Part shown: piece after piece, positions 23,316 through 29,885 of the stretch
Layout: the number at the start of each line of letters is the position of its first letter
Numbering within the stretch: the stretch's first letter is position 1
Virus record (IMG/VR): IMGVR_UViG_3300021319_000137
Span: 1-64,000 of that record
Reading direction: 5' to 3' (one strand)
Source of the DNA: a virus
Taxonomy: Duplodnaviria > Caudoviricetes
DNA length: 64,000 nucleotides
Translations under genes and position numbers: made by a program
The notes under the pieces: generated by a model
Seen by the model: the letters and a program-made list of their open reading frames with translations, nothing else
Told to the model about the DNA's origin: nothing
Database searches by the model: none

Positions 23316-23558
23316 ATGACACTATTTGAAGCATTATCGATCAATAAAGAGATGATCAATCGTTTGCAGGCTTTTGGTGCCAAAGCTGACGACTGGCGCT
23401 ATCTTGACCTGTATCGAGACTACCAGCGGATGCACCAGGAGGGGGATAAGGTGACCTATATCGTCTCTGTCCTGAGTGAGCGTTACCATGTGAGCGAGCG
23501 CAAGATCTACAGCCTGGTCAAACGCTTCGGTACCGACTGCACGGTTGATGCAGTGTGA
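23316..23558 (+). CDS. small HTH protein upstream of the methylase
   Basis: LSERYHVSERKIYSLVKRF. Confidence 0.7.
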   Translation: MTLFEALSINKEMINRLQAFGAKADDWRYLDLYRDYQRMHQEGDKVTYIVSVLSERYHVSERKIYSLVKRFGTDCTVDAV

Positions 23559-23608
23559 TTGCTCGATCTTGTGCCGCATGGGTTGGTTGGATTGCCGACC
23601 TTTGCGGT

Positions 23609-24432
23609 ATGGAAACGAAAAAACTGTACATGTCGGCGCCGCTTCCTTTCGTAGGTCAGAAGCGGAACTTTGCCAGACCATTCATCAAGGTGCTGGAGCA
23701 ATATCCTGACGGCACCACCTTTGTTGACCTGTTCGGTGGCAGCGGCTTGCTGTCACATATCGCCAAGCACCAGAAACCGCATAGCAAGGTTGTCTATAAC
23801 GACTATGATAACTACCGCGAGCGCCTGGTGCGCATTCCCGAGACCAATGAGCTGCTTGCCAAGCTGCGCGAGATCACTGCTGGCATCCCCAGGAAGTCGC
23901 CCATCATGGGCGAGGCACGTGAGCGGGTGCTTGCCACCATCGCCGCCCATGAGGCGCGATATATATCACCTTGTCCCCATCGATCCTGTTCTCTATGAAG
24001 TACCTGTTGAGCCTTGATGCGATTCGGAAAGAGGGGCTTTATAACAAGATCCGCACCACTGACTTCGCCCCTGCAGGTGACTACCTTGAAGGCTTGACCG
24101 TCACCAGTGCCGATTACCGCGAGGTGTTTGCCCAGTACAAAGACGAGCCGAATGTGGTGTTCCTGGTTGACCCGCCCTACCTGAGCACCGAAGCGGGAAC
24201 ATACAGGATGTATTGGAAGCTGAGTGACTACCTTGATGTGCTGAACGTGCTGAGGGCCCACCGCTTCATCTACTTCACCAGCAACAAGTCGAGCATCCTG
24301 GAACTGTGCCAATGGCTGGGTAAGAACCGAGACCTGGGCAATCCCTTTGCCGGCTGCCAGATGGTAGAGTTCCGCGCCCAGATGAACTACAGCGCATCCT
24401 ATACCGACATGATGATTTATAACGCCGCTTAA
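23609..24432 (+). pseudogene. phage N6-adenine methyltransferase split by a frameshift near 23960
   Basis: PLPFVGQK/DLFGGSG in the first frame and VDPPY in the second; junction at (AT)4, 23959-23966. Confidence 0.8.
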
Positions 24433-24469: not shown

Positions 24470-24506
24470 AAGAATCGACACAGTGCTGAGGCTGTGCCGA
24501 TTCTTT
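24470..24506. terminator. likely bidirectional terminator between convergent operons
   Basis: AAGAATCGACACAG ... CTGTGCCGATTCTT hairpin. Confidence 0.5.
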
Positions 24507-24523
24507 GTACTATGCGAGTATTG

Positions 24524-24733
24524 TCAGAGGGCTTTGCCCATGGCTATGCCCACAATCGCTATCAATAGACCAAGTTGGGCTTCCTTGTCATCAATGTCGC
24601 TCATGCTGATGTTGACCGGCTTCTCGGTGGCTTTGTCCCATATTTCCTGGTTTAATTCAACGCCAGCGAGAGTTGCTACTGTTGCCACCTGGTCGCGGCT
24701 AAATTCGATGTTAACGGTTAATTTCTTGTCCAT
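24524..24733 (-). CDS. small hypothetical protein with hydrophobic C-terminus
   Basis: 69-aa ORF. Confidence 0.55.
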   Translation of the reverse strand: MDKKLTVNIEFSRDQVATVATLAGVELNQEIWDKATEKPVNISMSDIDDKEAQLGLLIAIVGIAMGKAL

Positions 24734-24748
24734 GATGATAGTTGTATA

Positions 24749-24934
24749 TTATGGTTTATAGATGCCGAATATGGACCCGATAACGAGGGTGAGGAGTAAG
24801 ACCACGCCGGTCATTACGACTGACAGGAATATCAGAATGCCGGTTTTTGTCCTTATTCTGTCCCGGTGGATCTGCCTGTTGATCTTCTCGTCGATGCAGT
24901 ACCGGTTGCGTTTTTTTGCTATTTTTTTGTCCAT
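24749..24934 (-). CDS. small membrane protein
   Basis: Basic N-terminus and one long hydrophobic helix. Confidence 0.55.
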   Translation of the reverse strand: MDKKIAKKRNRYCIDEKINRQIHRDRIRTKTGILIFLSVVMTGVVLLLTLVIGSIFGIYKP

Positions 24935-24961
24935 GATAGTTGCTAATTCAAAAAATGGCGT

Positions 24962-25030
24962 TATATTTGCAAACAGATTAGCATTGAGATTGAGCCTTGG
25001 ATTGTAACTCCAGGTAGTTCTTTCTCTTTG
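24962..25030 (+). ncRNA. candidate small RNA with a tRNA-Tyr(GUA) anticodon-like stem-loop
   Basis: TATATTTG promoter (24962-24969) facing the MuF gene; CTTGGA-TTGTAAC-TCCAGG hairpin at 24996-25014. Confidence 0.45.
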
Positions 25031-26338
25031 CTATTTCTTTTTTATATATTTCTTTATTGTTTCTGGATTGTCGGAGATTGAGTGTAGTACATATTCTCCC
25101 CAGTCCCATTCCCAGACAATTATGCACTGTTCTTCTCCCTTGACCGTAGTAGAGAAAATATGGCTTTGCACAACTCTATCCCTACGTTTGTGTGGCGGCA
25201 ATGTAGCAGGGCCTAGGTACTCACTCTCTTCAAGCACTTCGTTAATTCTTAACAATAATTTGTTTTTCTCTTGATAGTGTTTGTTTGGTTGATTTGTCCA
25301 CTCCGAGATAGATGCCCTCGAAATATTAATAGGATGAGGGAAATGTGATGTTGTAATTGAAGTTCCTTGTAGTGGTTTAGCGAGCTTTCTTGTTTGTTTG
25401 GCATCGGCATTAGCCAAAACCCTAACTATACGACAAGCGGCACATAGTTCATTCTCAGGAACGAATGCCAGGTTGACCTTACCCTGGGCGATGTCGCAGT
25501 CCCGGCAGCGGCTGATGGTGTAGGGATTGTAGTCCGGGAACGTCTTGCCTTCCTTGCCCGAGTTGAAGCGGAAGATGCCGCGCGTGTCCTTCTGCAGGGC
25601 TTCCTCGCCCCTGGCACGCGCCTCTTCAGGATCTGTCACCGGGTACTTTGACTTGCGGACCTGGGCCACTGTGCAGCGGCAGTTCCAGCCATTGGGCGGG
25701 TAGTAAGTCTCCCAGAACGGGTCAGAGGGTGGCAGCGTCACCCCATCGAGGGCGGCGTGCTCAGGCCTTACCTTTTCATCATGCTGAGTGCGGTACTGCA
25801 GGTTGTAGCGGTCACCGTCGGCCTCGATCTGCTCCCACTTGGCCGCCATGTCTGCCGAAGCCTGGCAGAAGTTGTACTCGGCCCGCAGGTAGTTTTTATT
25901 GTAGGTGCTATCGATGGCTTGAACGTCATTCAAAAAGCGTTCAAAGGGCTTTCTCTCGCCATTCTCGTCGATGAGTGAGGGAAAGGCCTCGTTCAACTCA
26001 TGGAAGGCCTTAAAGCCCGAGAATATGAAGTTGGAACGCTCCAGCCGGTGTCGCATAGCATCAGACATCGATACCTGCTGCATAGAGTGGTTCAGCGCGT
26101 CGGCATGTGTGCCGATGAAGTCAGTGACCTCGGGTTCCTGGATGACCTGGATGTCGAGCATAGCGCCCTCCTGGCGGTAGAGCGCGTGCATCATTCCCTC
26201 GAACGCCTTGCCCACCCGGTCACGGATCTGCTGCTCGAGATCTTCACGAGCGAGAGTGACGGCGGTAATGAAGCCCTCACGGCCCAGTATTTCGGCATAA
26301 CGCTGGTGCAGCCCCGCATAGTCGGCGGGGCTCAGTCG
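25031..26338 (-). CDS. MuF / SPP1 gp7-like head morphogenesis protein with C-terminal extension; likely reached by -1 frameshift from portal
   Basis: LQYRT..D.KVRPEH, PPNGWNCRC; frame open from the portal end with no canonical start before GTG 26215. Confidence 0.8.
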   Translation of the reverse strand, partial: RLSPADYAGLHQRYAEILGREGFITAVTLAREDLEQQIRDRVGKAFEGMMHALYRQEGAMLDIQVIQEPEVTDFIGTHADALNHSMQQVSMSDAMRHRLERSNFIFSGFKAFHELNEAFPSLIDENGERKPFERFLNDVQAIDSTYNKNYLRAEYNFCQASADMAAKWEQIEADGDRYNLQYRTQHDEKVRPEHAALDGVTLPPSDPFWETYYPPNGWNCRCTVAQVRKSKYPVTDPEEARARGEEALQKDTRGIFRFNSGKEGKTFPDYNPYTISRCRDCDIAQGKVNLAFVPENELCAACRIVRVLANADAKQTRKLAKPLQGTSITTSHFPHPINISRASISEWTNQPNKHYQEKNKLLLRINEVLEESEYLGPATLPPHKRRDRVVQSHIFSTTVKGEEQCIIVWEWDWGEYVLHSISDNPETIKKYIKKK

Positions 26339-26347
26339 AAAAAAGGG
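26310..26347 (-). promoter_or_regulatory. putative -1 programmed ribosomal frameshift signal
   Basis: C CCU UUU UUC slippery run, 5-nt spacer, 8-bp stem AGCCCCGC/GCGGGGCU. Confidence 0.7.
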
Positions 26348-27657
26348 CGCACAGTCGCCTCCTGCTGGCCGTTTTGCTCTCCAGTGGGTGTTTCCTTACC
26401 TTTGCCCTCTTCATCATCCTGGGGCGGTTCTGTGGGCGGATTATTGGCATTGTTGCGGCGCTCACCTACCGGCATACCGTATTTATCTTCGAAATAGGAC
26501 GGGTCCACCTCATAGTTATTGAGCACCATGGTCTCATAGTTCACCTGCTGCTCGGGTGAATAGTCCACCGAATAGTCCCAGTCGAAGCGCAGCCCATTGA
26601 GCGGGAAACCATGACGGATCATGCGCGGGATGAGTTGGTCGTTAACGATGTCGCGGATGCTGTCGCAGTCAGCCTCGATGATGTTCTCGAAGACCTCCAG
26701 GTGAGTTTCGGACTGGCTGAGCGAGCTACCGTCCTCGATGGTCATGGTCTGTCCAATGATAAGCTTTGAGAGTTCACTGTTGGCCCTCTCAATGCGCCGG
26801 TCATAGACGTTGAAGGCATCGCCGCGTGAAGACTCGACCACCTCAATCTCGGTACCCTGCTGGAAAATGCCCCAGCCCTCGGTACCCATGTCGGCCATCA
26901 TCTTTTCCATGCGCTTCATCTCTTTATCGTCTCGAGTCGTAGTCCTGGCGATGCGCATTGGCATCCCGAAGATCTCGGCAAAAGTGTCCCAAAAGGCCAG
27001 CGCATTTTTCTTGGGGATGGTCTGTGTGGCCGCCTTGAGGAACAGTCCCAGGTTATCGGGCCGTCCTACCTCGATGAGCCAGTCACTGAACGGCGGTTGC
27101 CGATAGTCGATACCGGTGCTCCAGTCCTGCCCCAGGTCGGTGATGACGCGCCCGTATTCCGGTATGACGTGTTTGCGTGGAATCAGTTTGACCCCATTAT
27201 ATGCGAGTTTGCCGTCGCCAGCAGTGATGACATCCCCCAGCTCGATGAGCGAGTGTCCCCAATAGTTCGCATCGAGTGCGAGCTTGATCAGATCTTTGAA
27301 CCAGGCAGCGTCAAAGAAGCCCAAAGCACCTTCATCCTCGTCGCCGCTCTCGTTGACCAGCTTAAACGATCGCGCCATGACAAAGCCCTCGCGCTGCTGG
27401 ATACATCCGGAGAGGTGTAGATCAACAGCGACATCGCGGTAGATGTCATAGAGGGGTTGTCGGTTGGGGTAGTCCACGTTGATGGCCATCTGCCAAGCGG
27501 TGCGCCAGTCGCCGATGTCGCGTCTGGTGAGCGAGTCGGTGGTGCGCTGCAGCTGCATGACCGTTTTCTTGAACCTGGCCACGTCTTTCTTGGCGAGACG
27601 GAATGTGCCGAAAGGCGTCTCGAGCACCTGTTTATCGGTATTCTTTTTCTTGCTCAT
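26332..27657 (-). CDS. portal protein (DUF935, Mu gp29-like)
   Basis: WDTFAEIFGMPMRIART, ELSKLIIGQTMT, SLSQSETH. Confidence 0.85.
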   Translation of the reverse strand: MSKKKNTDKQVLETPFGTFRLAKKDVARFKKTVMQLQRTTDSLTRRDIGDWRTAWQMAINVDYPNRQPLYDIYRDVAVDLHLSGCIQQREGFVMARSFKLVNESGDEDEGALGFFDAAWFKDLIKLALDANYWGHSLIELGDVITAGDGKLAYNGVKLIPRKHVIPEYGRVITDLGQDWSTGIDYRQPPFSDWLIEVGRPDNLGLFLKAATQTIPKKNALAFWDTFAEIFGMPMRIARTTTRDDKEMKRMEKMMADMGTEGWGIFQQGTEIEVVESSRGDAFNVYDRRIERANSELSKLIIGQTMTIEDGSSLSQSETHLEVFENIIEADCDSIRDIVNDQLIPRMIRHGFPLNGLRFDWDYSVDYSPEQQVNYETMVLNNYEVDPSYFEDKYGMPVGERRNNANNPPTEPPQDDEEGKGKETPTGEQNGQQEATVRPFFD

Positions 27658-28328: not shown

Positions 28329-29885
28329 TCACCATTGGTTTTTAGAGGTCGGTCGTCTGCCGAACCTGGGTATATAATTTGCTTGTCTCGTATTGCGCTG
28401 GAGGAACCAGATGGCGCCCTCGTCAGCGTCAGGCGCATCGTCATGGACATGGCTGCCCCGTTCCAGCGCCAGTGTCTGTTCAATGCCAACCTGCATGTCC
28501 GGGCTATCCTTGAGCGCCTCGTTATAGAACACGAAGCCGCGTTCCCACAACGGGCTGACCGCTTCGATGCGCTGGATCTTTTCCGGCTTCTTGCGTGTGT
28601 CCGGCATAATGGGCAGTTGGTATCCTCTCAGTTCTCCCTCGGTGGTGAACTCGTCGAGGATGATGTCCTGCATGAAGTTCGCCTCCATGTAGAATGATGC
28701 TGCCACGCCTGCCTCGCTGAGGCGCTCATAGAGGTTGTAGAGCCATCGCACCATACCCGACACTGTGTCCTGGCGGACATAGCAGTCTATCAAGTGCAGC
28801 TCATTGCCGTGCTTGCCCCAGAGTCTGCAGGCCTTGTAGTCGTTGGCCGTAGTCGATTTGAAAGACGGGTCGGTGTAGCAGATGAGCTGCTCATACTTGC
28901 GCAGCGGCAGCACCTTTTTATATCTTATCCACTCATGCTTGAAGATGGCTCCCTCGTTGATGGGGTTGTGCATCATCTCCTTTTGCCAGGCCCGGTAGCC
29001 CACGAAGTCGGCATACTCCTGAGCCTCCTGTTTGGTCCATTTCTCTTTCCATACCGGATTGCCCTTATCATCCACCGCGCAGATCTTAGAGACATGGACC
29101 CCACGGGTGGCAGCTATGTTGGCCAGTACCGAGTTCTTGCTGATGAGGTTGCCCACCATGATGAAGCGGCCACGTCCCACATCCAGGGCACCGAACAGTG
29201 CCTCCTTGACCCAATCGGTGAGTTCCCGGACACGCCGCTCATTACGGCAGAGTTCATCGTCATCGAGGTCATCGATAACGATGTAGTCGGGTCGTGCTTC
29301 ACGTTCACGCAGACCACGCGGCGACTGCCCCCTGCCCACAGCCAGGAACTTCACGCCGTTTCTTGTGGTGAACTCACCTTCCATCCAGTTGCCGAGCGAC
29401 ATCTGTTCGCCGAAATCGGCGACGATGCGCTTGTTGTACTGGAGCTCTGCCTGGATGTCCCCCAGAAGCCGGTCGGCACTGTCCTCTGACTTGCCGACCA
29501 CCACCATGAAGTTGATGAGTCTATCCGGCTGGAACATGAGCCATAGCGGCATGAAGATGTCGAAGTGGGTGGATTTGGCATGACCACGTGGCCACATGAA
29601 GACCGCCTTAAGGTTGGGCGTGCTCTTCACCTTCCTAGCTGCGGCATTGTGGAACGGCGCATTGTGTACTGTGCGTATCACCTTGCCGGTGGCCTTGTCA
29701 CGCAGGTTAAGGAAATGGGGGAAGTAGTATTCACAGAACGCGGCATAGTCCCGCTGCAGCTTCTTGATGCGCTGGTCCCGCTGTGTCGCGTTCTCTCGCA
29801 CCAGGGTTGCCGTGTCGGTCATGCTCTGGATCTCGCGGCAGTGCGCCTCCCACAGTTCCCGATATTTAGATGGTAATGCAGGCAT
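28329..29885 (-). CDS. terL: terminase large subunit
   Basis: WPRGHAKST, IVIDDLDDD, DPSFKS, HDDAPDA. Confidence 0.92.
   Translation of the reverse strand: MPALPSKYRELWEAHCREIQSMTDTATLVRENATQRDQRIKKLQRDYAAFCEYYFPHFLNLRDKATGKVIRTVHNAPFHNAAARKVKSTPNLKAVFMWPRGHAKSTHFDIFMPLWLMFQPDRLINFMVVVGKSEDSADRLLGDIQAELQYNKRIVADFGEQMSLGNWMEGEFTTRNGVKFLAVGRGQSPRGLREREARPDYIVIDDLDDDELCRNERRVRELTDWVKEALFGALDVGRGRFIMVGNLISKNSVLANIAATRGVHVSKICAVDDKGNPVWKEKWTKQEAQEYADFVGYRAWQKEMMHNPINEGAIFKHEWIRYKKVLPLRKYEQLICYTDPSFKSTTANDYKACRLWGKHGNELHLIDCYVRQDTVSGMVRWLYNLYERLSEAGVAASFYMEANFMQDIILDEFTTEGELRGYQLPIMPDTRKKPEKIQRIEAVSPLWERGFVFYNEALKDSPDMQVGIEQTLALERGSHVHDDAPDADEGAIWFLQRNTRQANYIPRFGRRPTSKNQW

What the first reader, a model, noticed from the sequence alone, without database searches (positions are those of the whole stretch)
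24962..25030. Convergent small RNA mimicking a tRNA-Tyr anticodon arm right after a putative tRNase domain
Seen: a perfect Bacteroidetes -7 element (TATATTTG, 24962-24969) points toward the MuF stop codon with no ORF to drive. It precedes a 6-bp stem (one G-U) closing the 7-nt loop UUGUAAC, i.e. U33-GUA-A37 anticodon geometry. Known: colicin E5-type BECR RNases cut tRNA-Tyr/His/Asn/Asp at YGUN anticodon loops; type III antitoxins are RNA pseudo-substrates. Inference: an RNA decoy/antitoxin neutralising the MuF C-terminal nuclease, a toxin-RNA pair I do not know to be described.
Basis: partly seen in the sequence, partly recalled or inferred. Interest (0 to 1): 0.86.

Follow-up and report, generated by a model that had tools for sequence, protein, structure and literature searches.

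The report
Antisense small RNA partnering phage LPD3 domain
Just behind a phage head-protein gene lies a backwards-facing gene for a small hairpin RNA; its seven-base loop stays the same wherever this protein tail (LPD3) occurs, so it is probably that tail's dedicated RNA partner, perhaps an RNA antidote.

Summary
TATATTTG (24962-24969, + strand) has a TTG 19 nt upstream. It is followed by a 55-nt interrupted hairpin (24979-25033) whose tip is the reported 6-bp stem with loop UUGUAAC. The hairpin base covers the MuF stop codon and a U-run follows. This is far beyond chance. A full Bacteroidota promoter pattern lies antisense within 200 nt of the MuF stop in 59 of 65 distinct related loci (expected 0.008 per locus). 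The helices covary (200/200 cells paired), and the fold is much stronger on the + strand (20/20).

The MuF tail is Pfam LPD3, not a demonstrated tRNase. Its model only weakly resembles RelE/BrnT/colicin D/E5 toxins (Z up to 5.1).

The RNA follows the LPD3 domain, not MuF:
- 12 of 12 C-terminal LPD3 genes in other genomes have it, including a stand-alone 122-aa LPD3.
- All keep a 7-nt loop YUGYANN on unrelated stems.
- Stand-alone PBECR3 nuclease genes carry an analogous convergent RNA (5/5).

Best reading: a cognate RNA partner or antidote of LPD3, recognised through its loop (0.40). The main rival is pure cis-antisense control (0.28). Anticodon mimicry is unproven. No transcript data could be obtained.

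The scan found this kind of RNA before on other DNA (e1-2648716, e1-5449982 and others).

The parts
24939..24942 (+). -33-like element GTTG of the sRNA promoter, 19 nt upstream of the -7 box and 5 nt from the start codon of the downstream 61-aa ORF on the other strand
   Evidence: A TTG lies 17-23 nt upstream of the -7 box in 64 of 65 related loci, even where the upstream sequence is unrelated.
24962..24969 (+). -7 box TATATTTG (TAnnTTTG), pointing towards the MuF stop codon
   Evidence: It is followed by CA, as in 90% (C) and 81% (A) of relatives.
24974..25045 (+). Predicted sRNA of about 65-75 nt. The start is inferred to lie 4-8 nt after the -7 box and the end in the U-run.
   Evidence: Inferred from the promoter and terminator geometry. 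No transcript data.
24979..25033 (+). Interrupted 19-bp hairpin. Helices: P1 24979-83 with 25029-33; P2 24986-89 with 25023-26; P3 24992-95 with 25017-20; P4 24996-25001 with 25009-14.
   Evidence: -23.4 kcal/mol, z -4.7; mean + strand energy -22.2 against -12.9 kcal/mol for the other strand in 20 of 20 homologues, with 2-4 G.U pairs each. Searches show covariation.
25002..25008 (+). Apical 7-nt loop UUGUAAC, a member of the conserved YUGYANN loop
   Evidence: 29 of 32 RNAs beside C-terminal LPD3 domains have a stem of at least 4 bp closing this loop, and 32 of 32 carry the motif apically.
25034..25045 (+). U-run (UUUCUUUUUUAU) after the hairpin, the terminator tail. On the other strand it encodes the invariant IKKK end of MuF.
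   Evidence: Strict terminator-like sites occur on the antisense strand in 25 of 65 loci and on the sense strand in 1 of 65. IKKK is invariant.
25031..26215 (-). MuF minor head protein gene (394 aa from a GTG start). Pfam Phage_Mu_F covers residues 96-183.
25034..25414 (-). Variable C-terminal cassette of MuF (residues 268-394), an LPD3 domain (Pfam hit on residues 275-363)
   Evidence: LPD3, E = 4e-14; relatives share only residues 1-267; model pLDDT 88.
24749..24934 (-). Downstream 61-aa membrane-type ORF, not cassette-specific. Its 5' leader overlaps the sRNA promoter.
   Evidence: the same ORF follows four different tail families, and window-type tails are followed by at least five different neighbours.

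Best explanation
The + strand at 24939-25045 is a gene for a small RNA of about 70 nt. It has a host-type Bacteroidota promoter, one long imperfect hairpin and an intrinsic terminator that overlaps the MuF stop codon.

The RNA is the dedicated partner of the LPD3 domain that forms the swappable C-terminal tail of MuF. Most likely the LPD3 protein recognises the RNA through its invariant apical loop (YUGYA in a 7-nt, anticodon-like loop), and the RNA keeps the domain harmless in cells that carry the gene. That would make it an RNA antidote of the type III kind. Base pairing with the MuF mRNA 3' end may act as a second layer.

Shown: the gene anatomy, its conservation, the strand of the structure, and its linkage to the domain. 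Inferred: that the RNA is expressed, that it binds LPD3, and that LPD3 is harmful.
For: Promoter and terminator:
- The promoter is conserved and about 100-fold enriched at this spot.
- Strict terminator-like sites are almost only antisense, 25 loci against 1.

Structure:
- It covaries.
- It is strand-specific: 20 of 20 in the same RNA type and 57 of 65 across the whole MuF family, with no lean in coding controls.

Linkage to the domain rather than to MuF or a neighbouring gene:
- The same downstream ORF follows four different tail families.
- The window-type tail is followed by at least five different neighbours yet keeps the RNA.
- In 401 Bacteroidaceae genomes, 12 of 12 C-terminal LPD3 domains have the antisense promoter 54-105 nt after the stop.
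- One of these is a stand-alone 122-aa LPD3 beside a pstB-like gene.
- All three hits of the covariance model in 151 genomes abut an LPD3 end.

Loop:
- YUGYANN is kept on 16 different stems; the lower stems are unrelated in sequence. A purely cis-antisense RNA has no need for this.
- One locus (L264) carries two tandem hairpins with the same loop.

No protein antidote: no ORF fits between the MuF stop and the promoter, whereas described Bacteroidales MuF toxins are followed by small immunity ORFs (PMC11699363).

Analogy: stand-alone PBECR3 (predicted BECR nuclease) genes inserted in his and acc operons have the same convergent promoter and their own conserved RNA core in 5 of 5 cases, with no antitoxin ORF.

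Fold: the top structural matches of the LPD3 model are nearly all RelE/ParE/colicin D/E5/CdiA-CT toxins, though weak.
Against:
- LPD3 has no known activity and is not listed among the probably enzymatic LPD domains (PMC5512222). Its toxicity is unshown.
- Fold matches are at most Z 5.1, below the tool's noise level. Foldseek against PDB, the PDB sequence search and hhalign against PBECR3 found nothing.
- The strictly convergent, stop-overlapping layout is what 3'-overlapping type I antisense systems show, not type III systems.
- Except in one locus the RNA is a single hairpin, not a repeat array.
- A single-copy sRNA would have to neutralise a late-expressed structural protein.
- An earlier follow-up of a sister case in this scan priced the bold reading at 8/100.
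Confidence: 0.4

Rival explanations
1. Pure cis-antisense regulator, like lambda OOP or the 3'-overlapping type I systems txpA/RatA and bsrG/SR4. The sRNA pairs with the 3' end and 3' UTR of the MuF mRNA. The duplex is cut by a double-strand RNase, which lowers MuF-LPD3 expression in lysogens. The loop serves only as a kissing loop.
For: - The convergent layout, with the terminator over the stop codon, is universal across all tail families.
- The long hairpin has regularly spaced internal loops and a 7-nt loop, typical of antisense RNAs (general knowledge).
- Complementarity to every MuF transcript is guaranteed, including where MuF ends its operon before a terminator further down.
- The promoter faces incoming late transcription, so the RNA would be made mainly in lysogeny (inference).
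Against: - The overlap with the coding region is only a few codons.
- A cis-antisense pair stays complementary whatever mutates, so the invariance of YUGYA on 16 different stems is unexplained.
- The loop does not fit the YUNR motif.
- The tandem duplication of the hairpin in L264 is unexplained.
Confidence: 0.28
2. The RNA is a partner of LPD3 but not an inhibitor. It could be a cofactor, a guide, or cargo that the domain binds and perhaps carries into the capsid and the next host. Alternatively it is a trans-acting sRNA aimed at host RNAs.
For: - The evidence for domain linkage and loop conservation is the same as for the best explanation.
- LPD3 occurs in injected polyvalent proteins that carry no immunity genes (PMC5512222).
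- Antisense promoter-hairpin units also sit inside giant polyvalent ORFs just after internal LPD3 domains.
Against: - No complementary target above chance was found in the 64-kb window.
- The 5' leader is not conserved.
- I know of no precedent.
Confidence: 0.14
3. There is no functional RNA gene. The hairpin is a DNA-level or mRNA 3'-end element (a stabiliser, a recombination boundary of the swappable cassette, or a terminator for stray antisense transcription), and the promoter match is incidental.
For: - There is no expression data.
- The element sits exactly at the cassette boundary.
- Hairpins fold on both strands to some degree; mean sense-strand z is -2.15.
- An earlier check of a sister case doubted the promoter's specificity.
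Against: - The promoter pattern is present in 59 of 65 loci against 0.008 expected, and a sense-strand -7 box in 4 of 67.
- The -33 element is kept in unrelated upstream contexts.
- G.U pairs favour the antisense strand in 20 of 20.
- The U-run is on the antisense side only.
Confidence: 0.08

Closest known systems
Type III toxin-antitoxin systems (ToxIN, CptIN, TenpIN)
   Same: A small structured RNA encoded beside a ribonuclease-type protein and proposed to neutralise the protein itself. No protein antitoxin. Carried on mobile or phage-related DNA.
   Different: - The protein here is LPD3 (RelE/BECR-like at best), not ToxN.
- The RNA is one hairpin, not a repeat array processed by the toxin.
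- The gene is convergent and downstream, overlapping the stop codon, rather than upstream in the same direction.
- Binding is not shown.
Type I toxin-antitoxin systems with 3'-overlapping convergent RNAs (txpA/RatA, bsrG/SR4 of Bacillus prophages)
   Same: The convergent sRNA has its own promoter and terminator and overlaps the 3' end of the partner mRNA. These systems also reside on prophages.
   Different: - Those toxins are small membrane peptides; here the partner is a soluble domain of about 125 aa, often fused to a head protein.
- The loop sequence is conserved across distant members.
Lambda OOP RNA and P22 sar RNA
   Same: A short phage antisense RNA that starts in the spacer after a gene and ends inside that gene's 3' end.
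   Different: - Those RNAs regulate lysis-lysogeny regulators.
- They are not linked to a swappable protein domain and have no family-wide loop motif.
MuF polymorphic toxins with immunity proteins (Jamet et al. 2017, PMC5576092; Bxa, PMC11699363)
   Same: A conserved MuF N-terminal part carries swappable C-terminal cassettes in temperate phages of gut Bacteroidales.
   Different: - The cassette partner here is an RNA gene, not an immunity ORF.
- The tail is LPD3, whose toxicity is unknown.
Candidate structured RNA HMP2_1418 (Fremin and Bhatt 2021, PMC8040213, Table S1)
   Same: A 33-nt motif listed next to PBECR1, PBECR3 and LPD3 domain genes, including in Paraprevotella clara YIT 11840, which carries a sister copy of this RNA.
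   Different: It is only a table row without interpretation. I could not see its sequence, so identity with this hairpin is unconfirmed.

Membership tests
Bacteroidota primary-sigma promoter (TTTG-N19-21-TAnnTTTG) | -7 box TAnnTTTG with a -33 TTTG/TTG 17-23 nt upstream | tested here: met
   GTTG-N19-TATATTTG in the window. Conserved in 59-64 of 65 loci.
Intrinsic terminator | Stable hairpin directly followed by a U-run on the transcribed strand | tested here: met
   Antisense 25 of 65 against sense 1 of 65 by strict rules.
Type III toxin-antitoxin | Antitoxin RNA made of tandem repeats, encoded upstream of the toxin in the same direction | tested here: not met
   Single hairpin, convergent and downstream. 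Only L264 has two units.
Type III toxin-antitoxin | The RNA binds and inhibits the protein toxin directly | not testable with these tools
   No RNA-protein prediction tool or assay was available.
Type III toxin-antitoxin | Toxin of the ToxN/AbiQ endoribonuclease family | tested here: not met
   Pfam reports only Phage_Mu_F and LPD3.
Type I toxin-antitoxin (3'-overlap class) | Cis-encoded convergent antisense RNA overlapping the 3' end of the toxin mRNA | tested here: met
   Promoter orientation, and terminator placed over the stop codon.
Type I toxin-antitoxin (3'-overlap class) | Toxin is a small hydrophobic membrane peptide | tested here: not met
   The partner is a soluble alpha/beta domain of 127 aa fused to MuF.
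BECR-fold ribonuclease toxins (colicin E5/D, RelE, CdiA-CT, PBECR) | Shared fold with solved members | tested here: inconclusive
   The wide structural search is topped by BrnT (Z 5.1), RelE (4.7), CdiA-CT (4.6), colicin D (4.5) and colicin E5 (4.3), all below the tool's noise bar. Foldseek against PDB found nothing.
BECR-fold ribonuclease toxins (colicin E5/D, RelE, CdiA-CT, PBECR) | Sequence or profile membership | tested here: inconclusive
   No Pfam PBECR or colicin hit. hhalign against PBECR3 gives probability 0.1. The protein atlas lists a PBECR3-containing cluster only at 0.82.
BECR-fold ribonuclease toxins (colicin E5/D, RelE, CdiA-CT, PBECR) | tRNA or RNA cleavage activity | not testable with these tools
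   Needs an enzyme assay.
MuF polymorphic toxin system | MuF N-terminal domain with a variable C-terminal domain | tested here: met
   (11 tail clusters).
MuF polymorphic toxin system | Cognate immunity protein gene next to the toxin end | tested here: not met
   No ORF between the stop and the promoter, and the downstream ORF is shared by four tail families.
tRNA anticodon-arm mimic (Tyr) | 7-nt loop with U at position 2 and GUA at positions 3-5 | tested here: met
   True in the window. Across the family positions 3-5 are GUA in 11 and GCA in 5 of 16 versions.
tRNA anticodon-arm mimic (Tyr) | Purine at position 37 and a match to the host tRNA-Tyr loop | tested here: not met
   Position 37 is U in 5 of 16 versions. 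The host loop CUGUAAA differs at positions 32 and 38, and often at 37.
tRNA anticodon-arm mimic (Tyr) | Recognised as tRNA-like by tRNA models | tested here: not met
   ARAGORN finds no tRNA in the window and Rfam gives no hit.
Rfam families | Match to any curated RNA family | tested here: not met
   (E up to 10). The only hit is RT-3 RNA elsewhere in relatives.

The most novel reading that the evidence does not exclude
LPD3 is an anticodon-loop nuclease or binder aimed at tRNAs with G-Y-A anticodons (Tyr and Cys). The sRNA is an anticodon-arm pseudo-substrate that serves as the immunity factor of the cassette. That would be the first RNA immunity for a polymorphic toxin. It would also be a new toxin-antitoxin class shared by stand-alone LPD3 and PBECR3 genes, MuF fusions and giant injected polyvalent proteins.
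Probability: 0.17. Interest if true: 0.92.

Novelty: new variant of a known kind. Interest (0 to 1): 0.72.

Why it matters
- LPD3 and the PBECR domains are among the commonest unexplained parts of proteins that phages inject into cells. A dedicated RNA partner would give them a first functional handle.
- It would explain why many MuF toxin-like cassettes in gut Bacteroidales phages lack an immunity gene.
- It would add an RNA antidote, or a domain-specific RNA regulator, to the repertoire of phage-host and phage-phage conflict.
- It would define an uncatalogued RNA family present in hundreds of gut phage genomes. The family is easy to test in culturable Paraprevotella, Prevotella and Bacteroides lysogens.

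Tried and rejected
- **Known RNA families.** Rfam at permissive E-values and ARAGORN found no known RNA. Rfam on 20 relatives found only RT-3 RNA about 1 kb away.
- **Repeats.** The region is single-copy in the 85.7-kb record.
- **Trans target.** The sRNA has no match above chance (at most 11 nt) elsewhere in the window.
- **Orphan copies.** The covariance model scan of 151 genomes found no copy away from an LPD3 end, but only 3 hits in all.
- **Tail identity.** Foldseek against PDB, the PDB sequence searches and hhalign of LPD3 against PBECR3 were all empty.
- **Pretoxin-HINT idea.** I considered that long relatives (L022, L023) carry a pretoxin-HINT domain marking a true toxin. I rejected this: the hits are sub-threshold and fit an intein-like insert.
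- **Downstream ORFs as immunity proteins.** Rejected for the 61-aa and 69-aa ORFs: the 61-aa ORF follows four unrelated tails, and neither has a significant Pfam family.
- **Hankyphage literature.** The RNA-seq paper does not mention such an RNA, and the window phage is not a close hankyphage relative.
- **tRNA genes by 3' CCA.** A pattern search found none; the Rfam tRNA model was used instead.

Full report
**Setting**

The window is part of an IMG/VR provirus record of 85.7 kb. On the minus strand lies a Mu-like head operon:
- large terminase, 28329-29885;
- Mu-type portal, 26332-27657;
- MuF, 25031-26215;
- two small ORFs, 24749-24934 and 24524-24733;
- a bidirectional terminator near 24470-24505, which faces a convergent, split D12 methylase gene.

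MuF (394 aa) has the Phage_Mu_F domain at residues 96-183. Its C-terminal domain matches Pfam LPD3 (E = 4e-14), not any nuclease family.

**The observation**

- TATATTTG at 24962-24969;
- stem CUUGGA/UCCAGG with one G.U pair;
- loop UUGUAAC at 25002-25008;
- no + strand ORF downstream of the promoter.

Three things were missed:
- A -33-like GTTG lies 19 nt upstream of the -7 box.
- The small hairpin is the tip of a 55-nt interrupted hairpin, 24979-25033. It folds at -23.4 kcal/mol with z = -4.7 on the + strand, but z is only about -1 on the - strand.
- The hairpin base contains the MuF stop codon and is followed by UUUCUUUUUU.

The unit is therefore promoter, short leader, one long hairpin and a terminator tail, about 70 nt in all.

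**Is it more than chance?**

Relatives of MuF in viral contigs share residues 1-267, but their last 130-170 residues differ. The evidence from these loci is as follows.
- In 65 of 67 distinct loci an antisense TAnnTTTG lies within 160 nt of the MuF stop. A sense-strand motif occurs in 4 of 67.
- A TTG lies 17-23 nt upstream in 64 of 65, and CA follows the box.
- The full promoter pattern occurs at this spot in 59 of 65 loci. The background is 0.042 per kb on that strand, which gives 0.008 expected per locus.
- The stretch between promoter and stop is structured: mean z is -3.15 antisense against -2.15 sense, and the antisense strand is better in 53 of 65. Equal-length pieces of MuF coding sequence give z about 0 and show no strand lean.
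- Strict terminator-like sites occur on the antisense strand in 25 of 65 loci, all at the stop codon. On the sense strand they occur in 1 of 65.

**The same RNA in homologues**

Forty proteins share the window's tail at 54-100% identity. Their loci came from encoding contigs, metagenomes and genomes of Prevotella, Paraprevotella, Alloprevotella and Bacteroides.

Twenty distinct versions of the RNA were aligned.
- The basal and apical helices are paired in 200 of 200 cells.
- Three pairs show changes on both sides.
- The covariation score is 0.353, against 0.177 in shuffles (reached by 0 of 500) and against 0.15 or less in slid controls.
- The middle helix is replaced by different but still pairing sequences.
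- Every hairpin has 2-4 G.U pairs. Mean energy is -22.2 kcal/mol on the + strand against -12.9 on the other, in 20 of 20 cases. The selected structure is therefore that of the antisense RNA.

**What the RNA is linked to**

It is not linked to the downstream gene. The 61-aa ORF follows four different tail families, and window-type tails are followed by at least five different neighbours, some of them convergent.

It is not linked to MuF as such. In a Pfam LPD3 scan of 401 Bacteroidaceae genomes, 12 of 12 genes with LPD3 at the C-terminus have the antisense -7 box 54-105 nt after the stop. These include several MuF lineages and a stand-alone 122-aa LPD3 beside a pstB-like gene.

All of these RNAs carry an apical hairpin with a 7-nt loop YUGYANN.
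- There are 16 distinct stem-loop versions.
- Positions 33, 34 and 36 are invariant (U, G, A).
- Position 35 is U in 11 and C in 5.
- Position 37 is G in 10, U in 5 and A in 1.
- The lower stems are unrelated in sequence.
- One locus (L264) has two tandem hairpins with this loop.

A covariance model found three hits in 151 genomes, all abutting an LPD3 end.

**Other tails and other domains**

RNAs behind other MuF tails differ but are just as regular. RNA clusters nest within tail clusters. The two other LPD3-like tail families each have their own conserved core inside covarying outer stems. About half of the remaining tails give weak hits to CdiA_C (PF18451), the Burkholderia 1026b tRNase family (PMC9990079).

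Stand-alone PBECR3 genes (predicted BECR nucleases, 142-152 aa) are inserted between hisD and hisC, or between acc genes, in other Bacteroidota. All five have an antisense TAnnTTTG 70-87 nt after the stop. They also share a core, CGUUUYGGACGU, and have no antitoxin ORF.

Internal LPD3 domains inside giant polyvalent ORFs show a similar pattern. In 14 of 17 cases an antisense TAnnTTTG lies 88-127 nt after the domain end, inside the ORF, and is followed by a long hairpin and a U-run. I did not test this last point for covariation. The box also lies within conserved peptide motifs, so it remains a lead.

**The protein tail**

- The AlphaFold model is confident (pLDDT 88).
- Foldseek against PDB finds nothing.
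- The wide structural search is headed almost entirely by RelE/ParE-type and BECR toxins: BrnT Z 5.1, RelE 4.7, CdiA-CT 4.6, colicin D 4.5 and colicin E5 4.3. These values are below the tool's stated noise level.
- Viral models match LPD3 domains of polyvalent proteins.
- Iyer et al. 2017 leave the function of LPD3 open.
- hhalign against PBECR3 is negative.

'Putative tRNase' is therefore a reasonable guess, not a finding.

**Anticodon mimicry**

The host-type tRNA-Tyr arm in Paraprevotella clara is GCAGA-CUGUAAA-UCUGC. The resident sRNA has CGGGA-UUGUAGU-UCCCG. The loop size, U33, G34, U35, A36 and the A-U closing pair agree. Positions 32 and 38 do not, and position 37 often does not. A third of the versions read GCA (Cys) rather than GUA.

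Any 7-nt loop with U at position 2 resembles some anticodon loop. The argument therefore rests on the conservation of the loop, not on the resemblance.

**Mechanism**

Shown:
- a conserved transcription unit, by sequence signals;
- a strand-specific, covarying hairpin;
- strict linkage to LPD3 ends;
- a deeply conserved loop;
- no protein immunity gene.

Inferred:
- that the RNA is expressed;
- that it binds LPD3;
- that LPD3 is harmful.

I favour recognition of the loop by the LPD3 domain, with the RNA acting as an antidote (0.40). A pure antisense pair does not need an invariant loop, and the module also occurs alone in chromosomes, as toxin-antitoxin pairs do. The convergent, stop-overlapping layout is the signature of 3'-overlapping type I systems and of lambda OOP, so pure antisense control is a strong rival (0.28). 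Both mechanisms may operate together. The remaining readings are a non-inhibitory partner or a trans-acting role (0.14) and no functional RNA (0.08).

**Prior knowledge**

- No Rfam family matches.
- Fremin and Bhatt 2021 list a 33-nt candidate, HMP2_1418, next to PBECR1, PBECR3 and LPD3 genes. It occurs in Paraprevotella clara YIT 11840 among other organisms. It is probably this hairpin class, but I could not see the sequence.
- Papers on Bacteroidales MuF toxins describe protein immunity only.
- This scan has met the same kind of RNA on other DNA: e1-2648716, e1-2647391, e1-3676467, e1-3953312 and e1-5449982. A later check of the first of these accepted the observation but priced its bold reading at 8/100, partly doubting promoter specificity and strand lean.
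- Here both controls came out clearly. The domain-level linkage and the invariant loop are new arguments.

Noticed in passing
L234:1423-1960, L235:1400-1923, L239, L240, L242: Stand-alone PBECR3 (predicted BECR nuclease) genes are inserted in his and acc operons of other Bacteroidota. Each has a convergent antisense TAnnTTTG 70-87 nt after the stop, a shared RNA core CGUUUYGGACGU and no antitoxin ORF. This looks like an undescribed RNA-partnered toxin module.
   Followed up: partly
L243-L272 (for example L252, L254, L257, L246): Inside giant polyvalent-protein ORFs, 14 of 17 internal LPD3 domains are followed 88-127 nt later by an antisense TAnnTTTG, a long hairpin and a U-run, all within coding sequence. 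The -7 box lies within the peptide motifs GKDK or AANLL.
   Followed up: partly
L264 (antisense strand, 105 nt after the MuF stop): The sRNA here has two tandem hairpins, with loops UUGUAUU and UUGCAGU, instead of one.
   Followed up: no
window 23555-24432 (+): The D12-class adenine methylase is split into two overlapping ORFs (23555-23998 and 23971-24432). This is either a frameshift or a broken gene.
   Followed up: no
window 24470-24505: A 14-bp hairpin with T-runs on both sides, a bidirectional terminator between the head operon and the convergent methylase genes.
   Followed up: no
L164:4236-4389, L155, L192, L152, L172, L140, L009: RT-3 RNA (RF03068) lies about 1 kb downstream of MuF in relatives at 120-144 bits.
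   Followed up: no
L022:3526-5427, L023:945-2864: An insert of about 360 aa with sub-threshold Hint, intein-splicing and homing-endonuclease-Hint hits lies right after the MuF core. It is probably an intein.
   Followed up: partly
L009, L010-L012, L017, L023 (antisense RNAs): RNAs behind different tail families share a 5' module (GGAUCAUUCC-hairpin-GGUUUGGNCCCC) with compensatory changes. The RNAs appear to be modular.
   Followed up: no
many loci (for example L164, L126, L174): A second antisense TAnnTTTG lies 30-41 nt upstream of the first. These may be tandem promoters.
   Followed up: no
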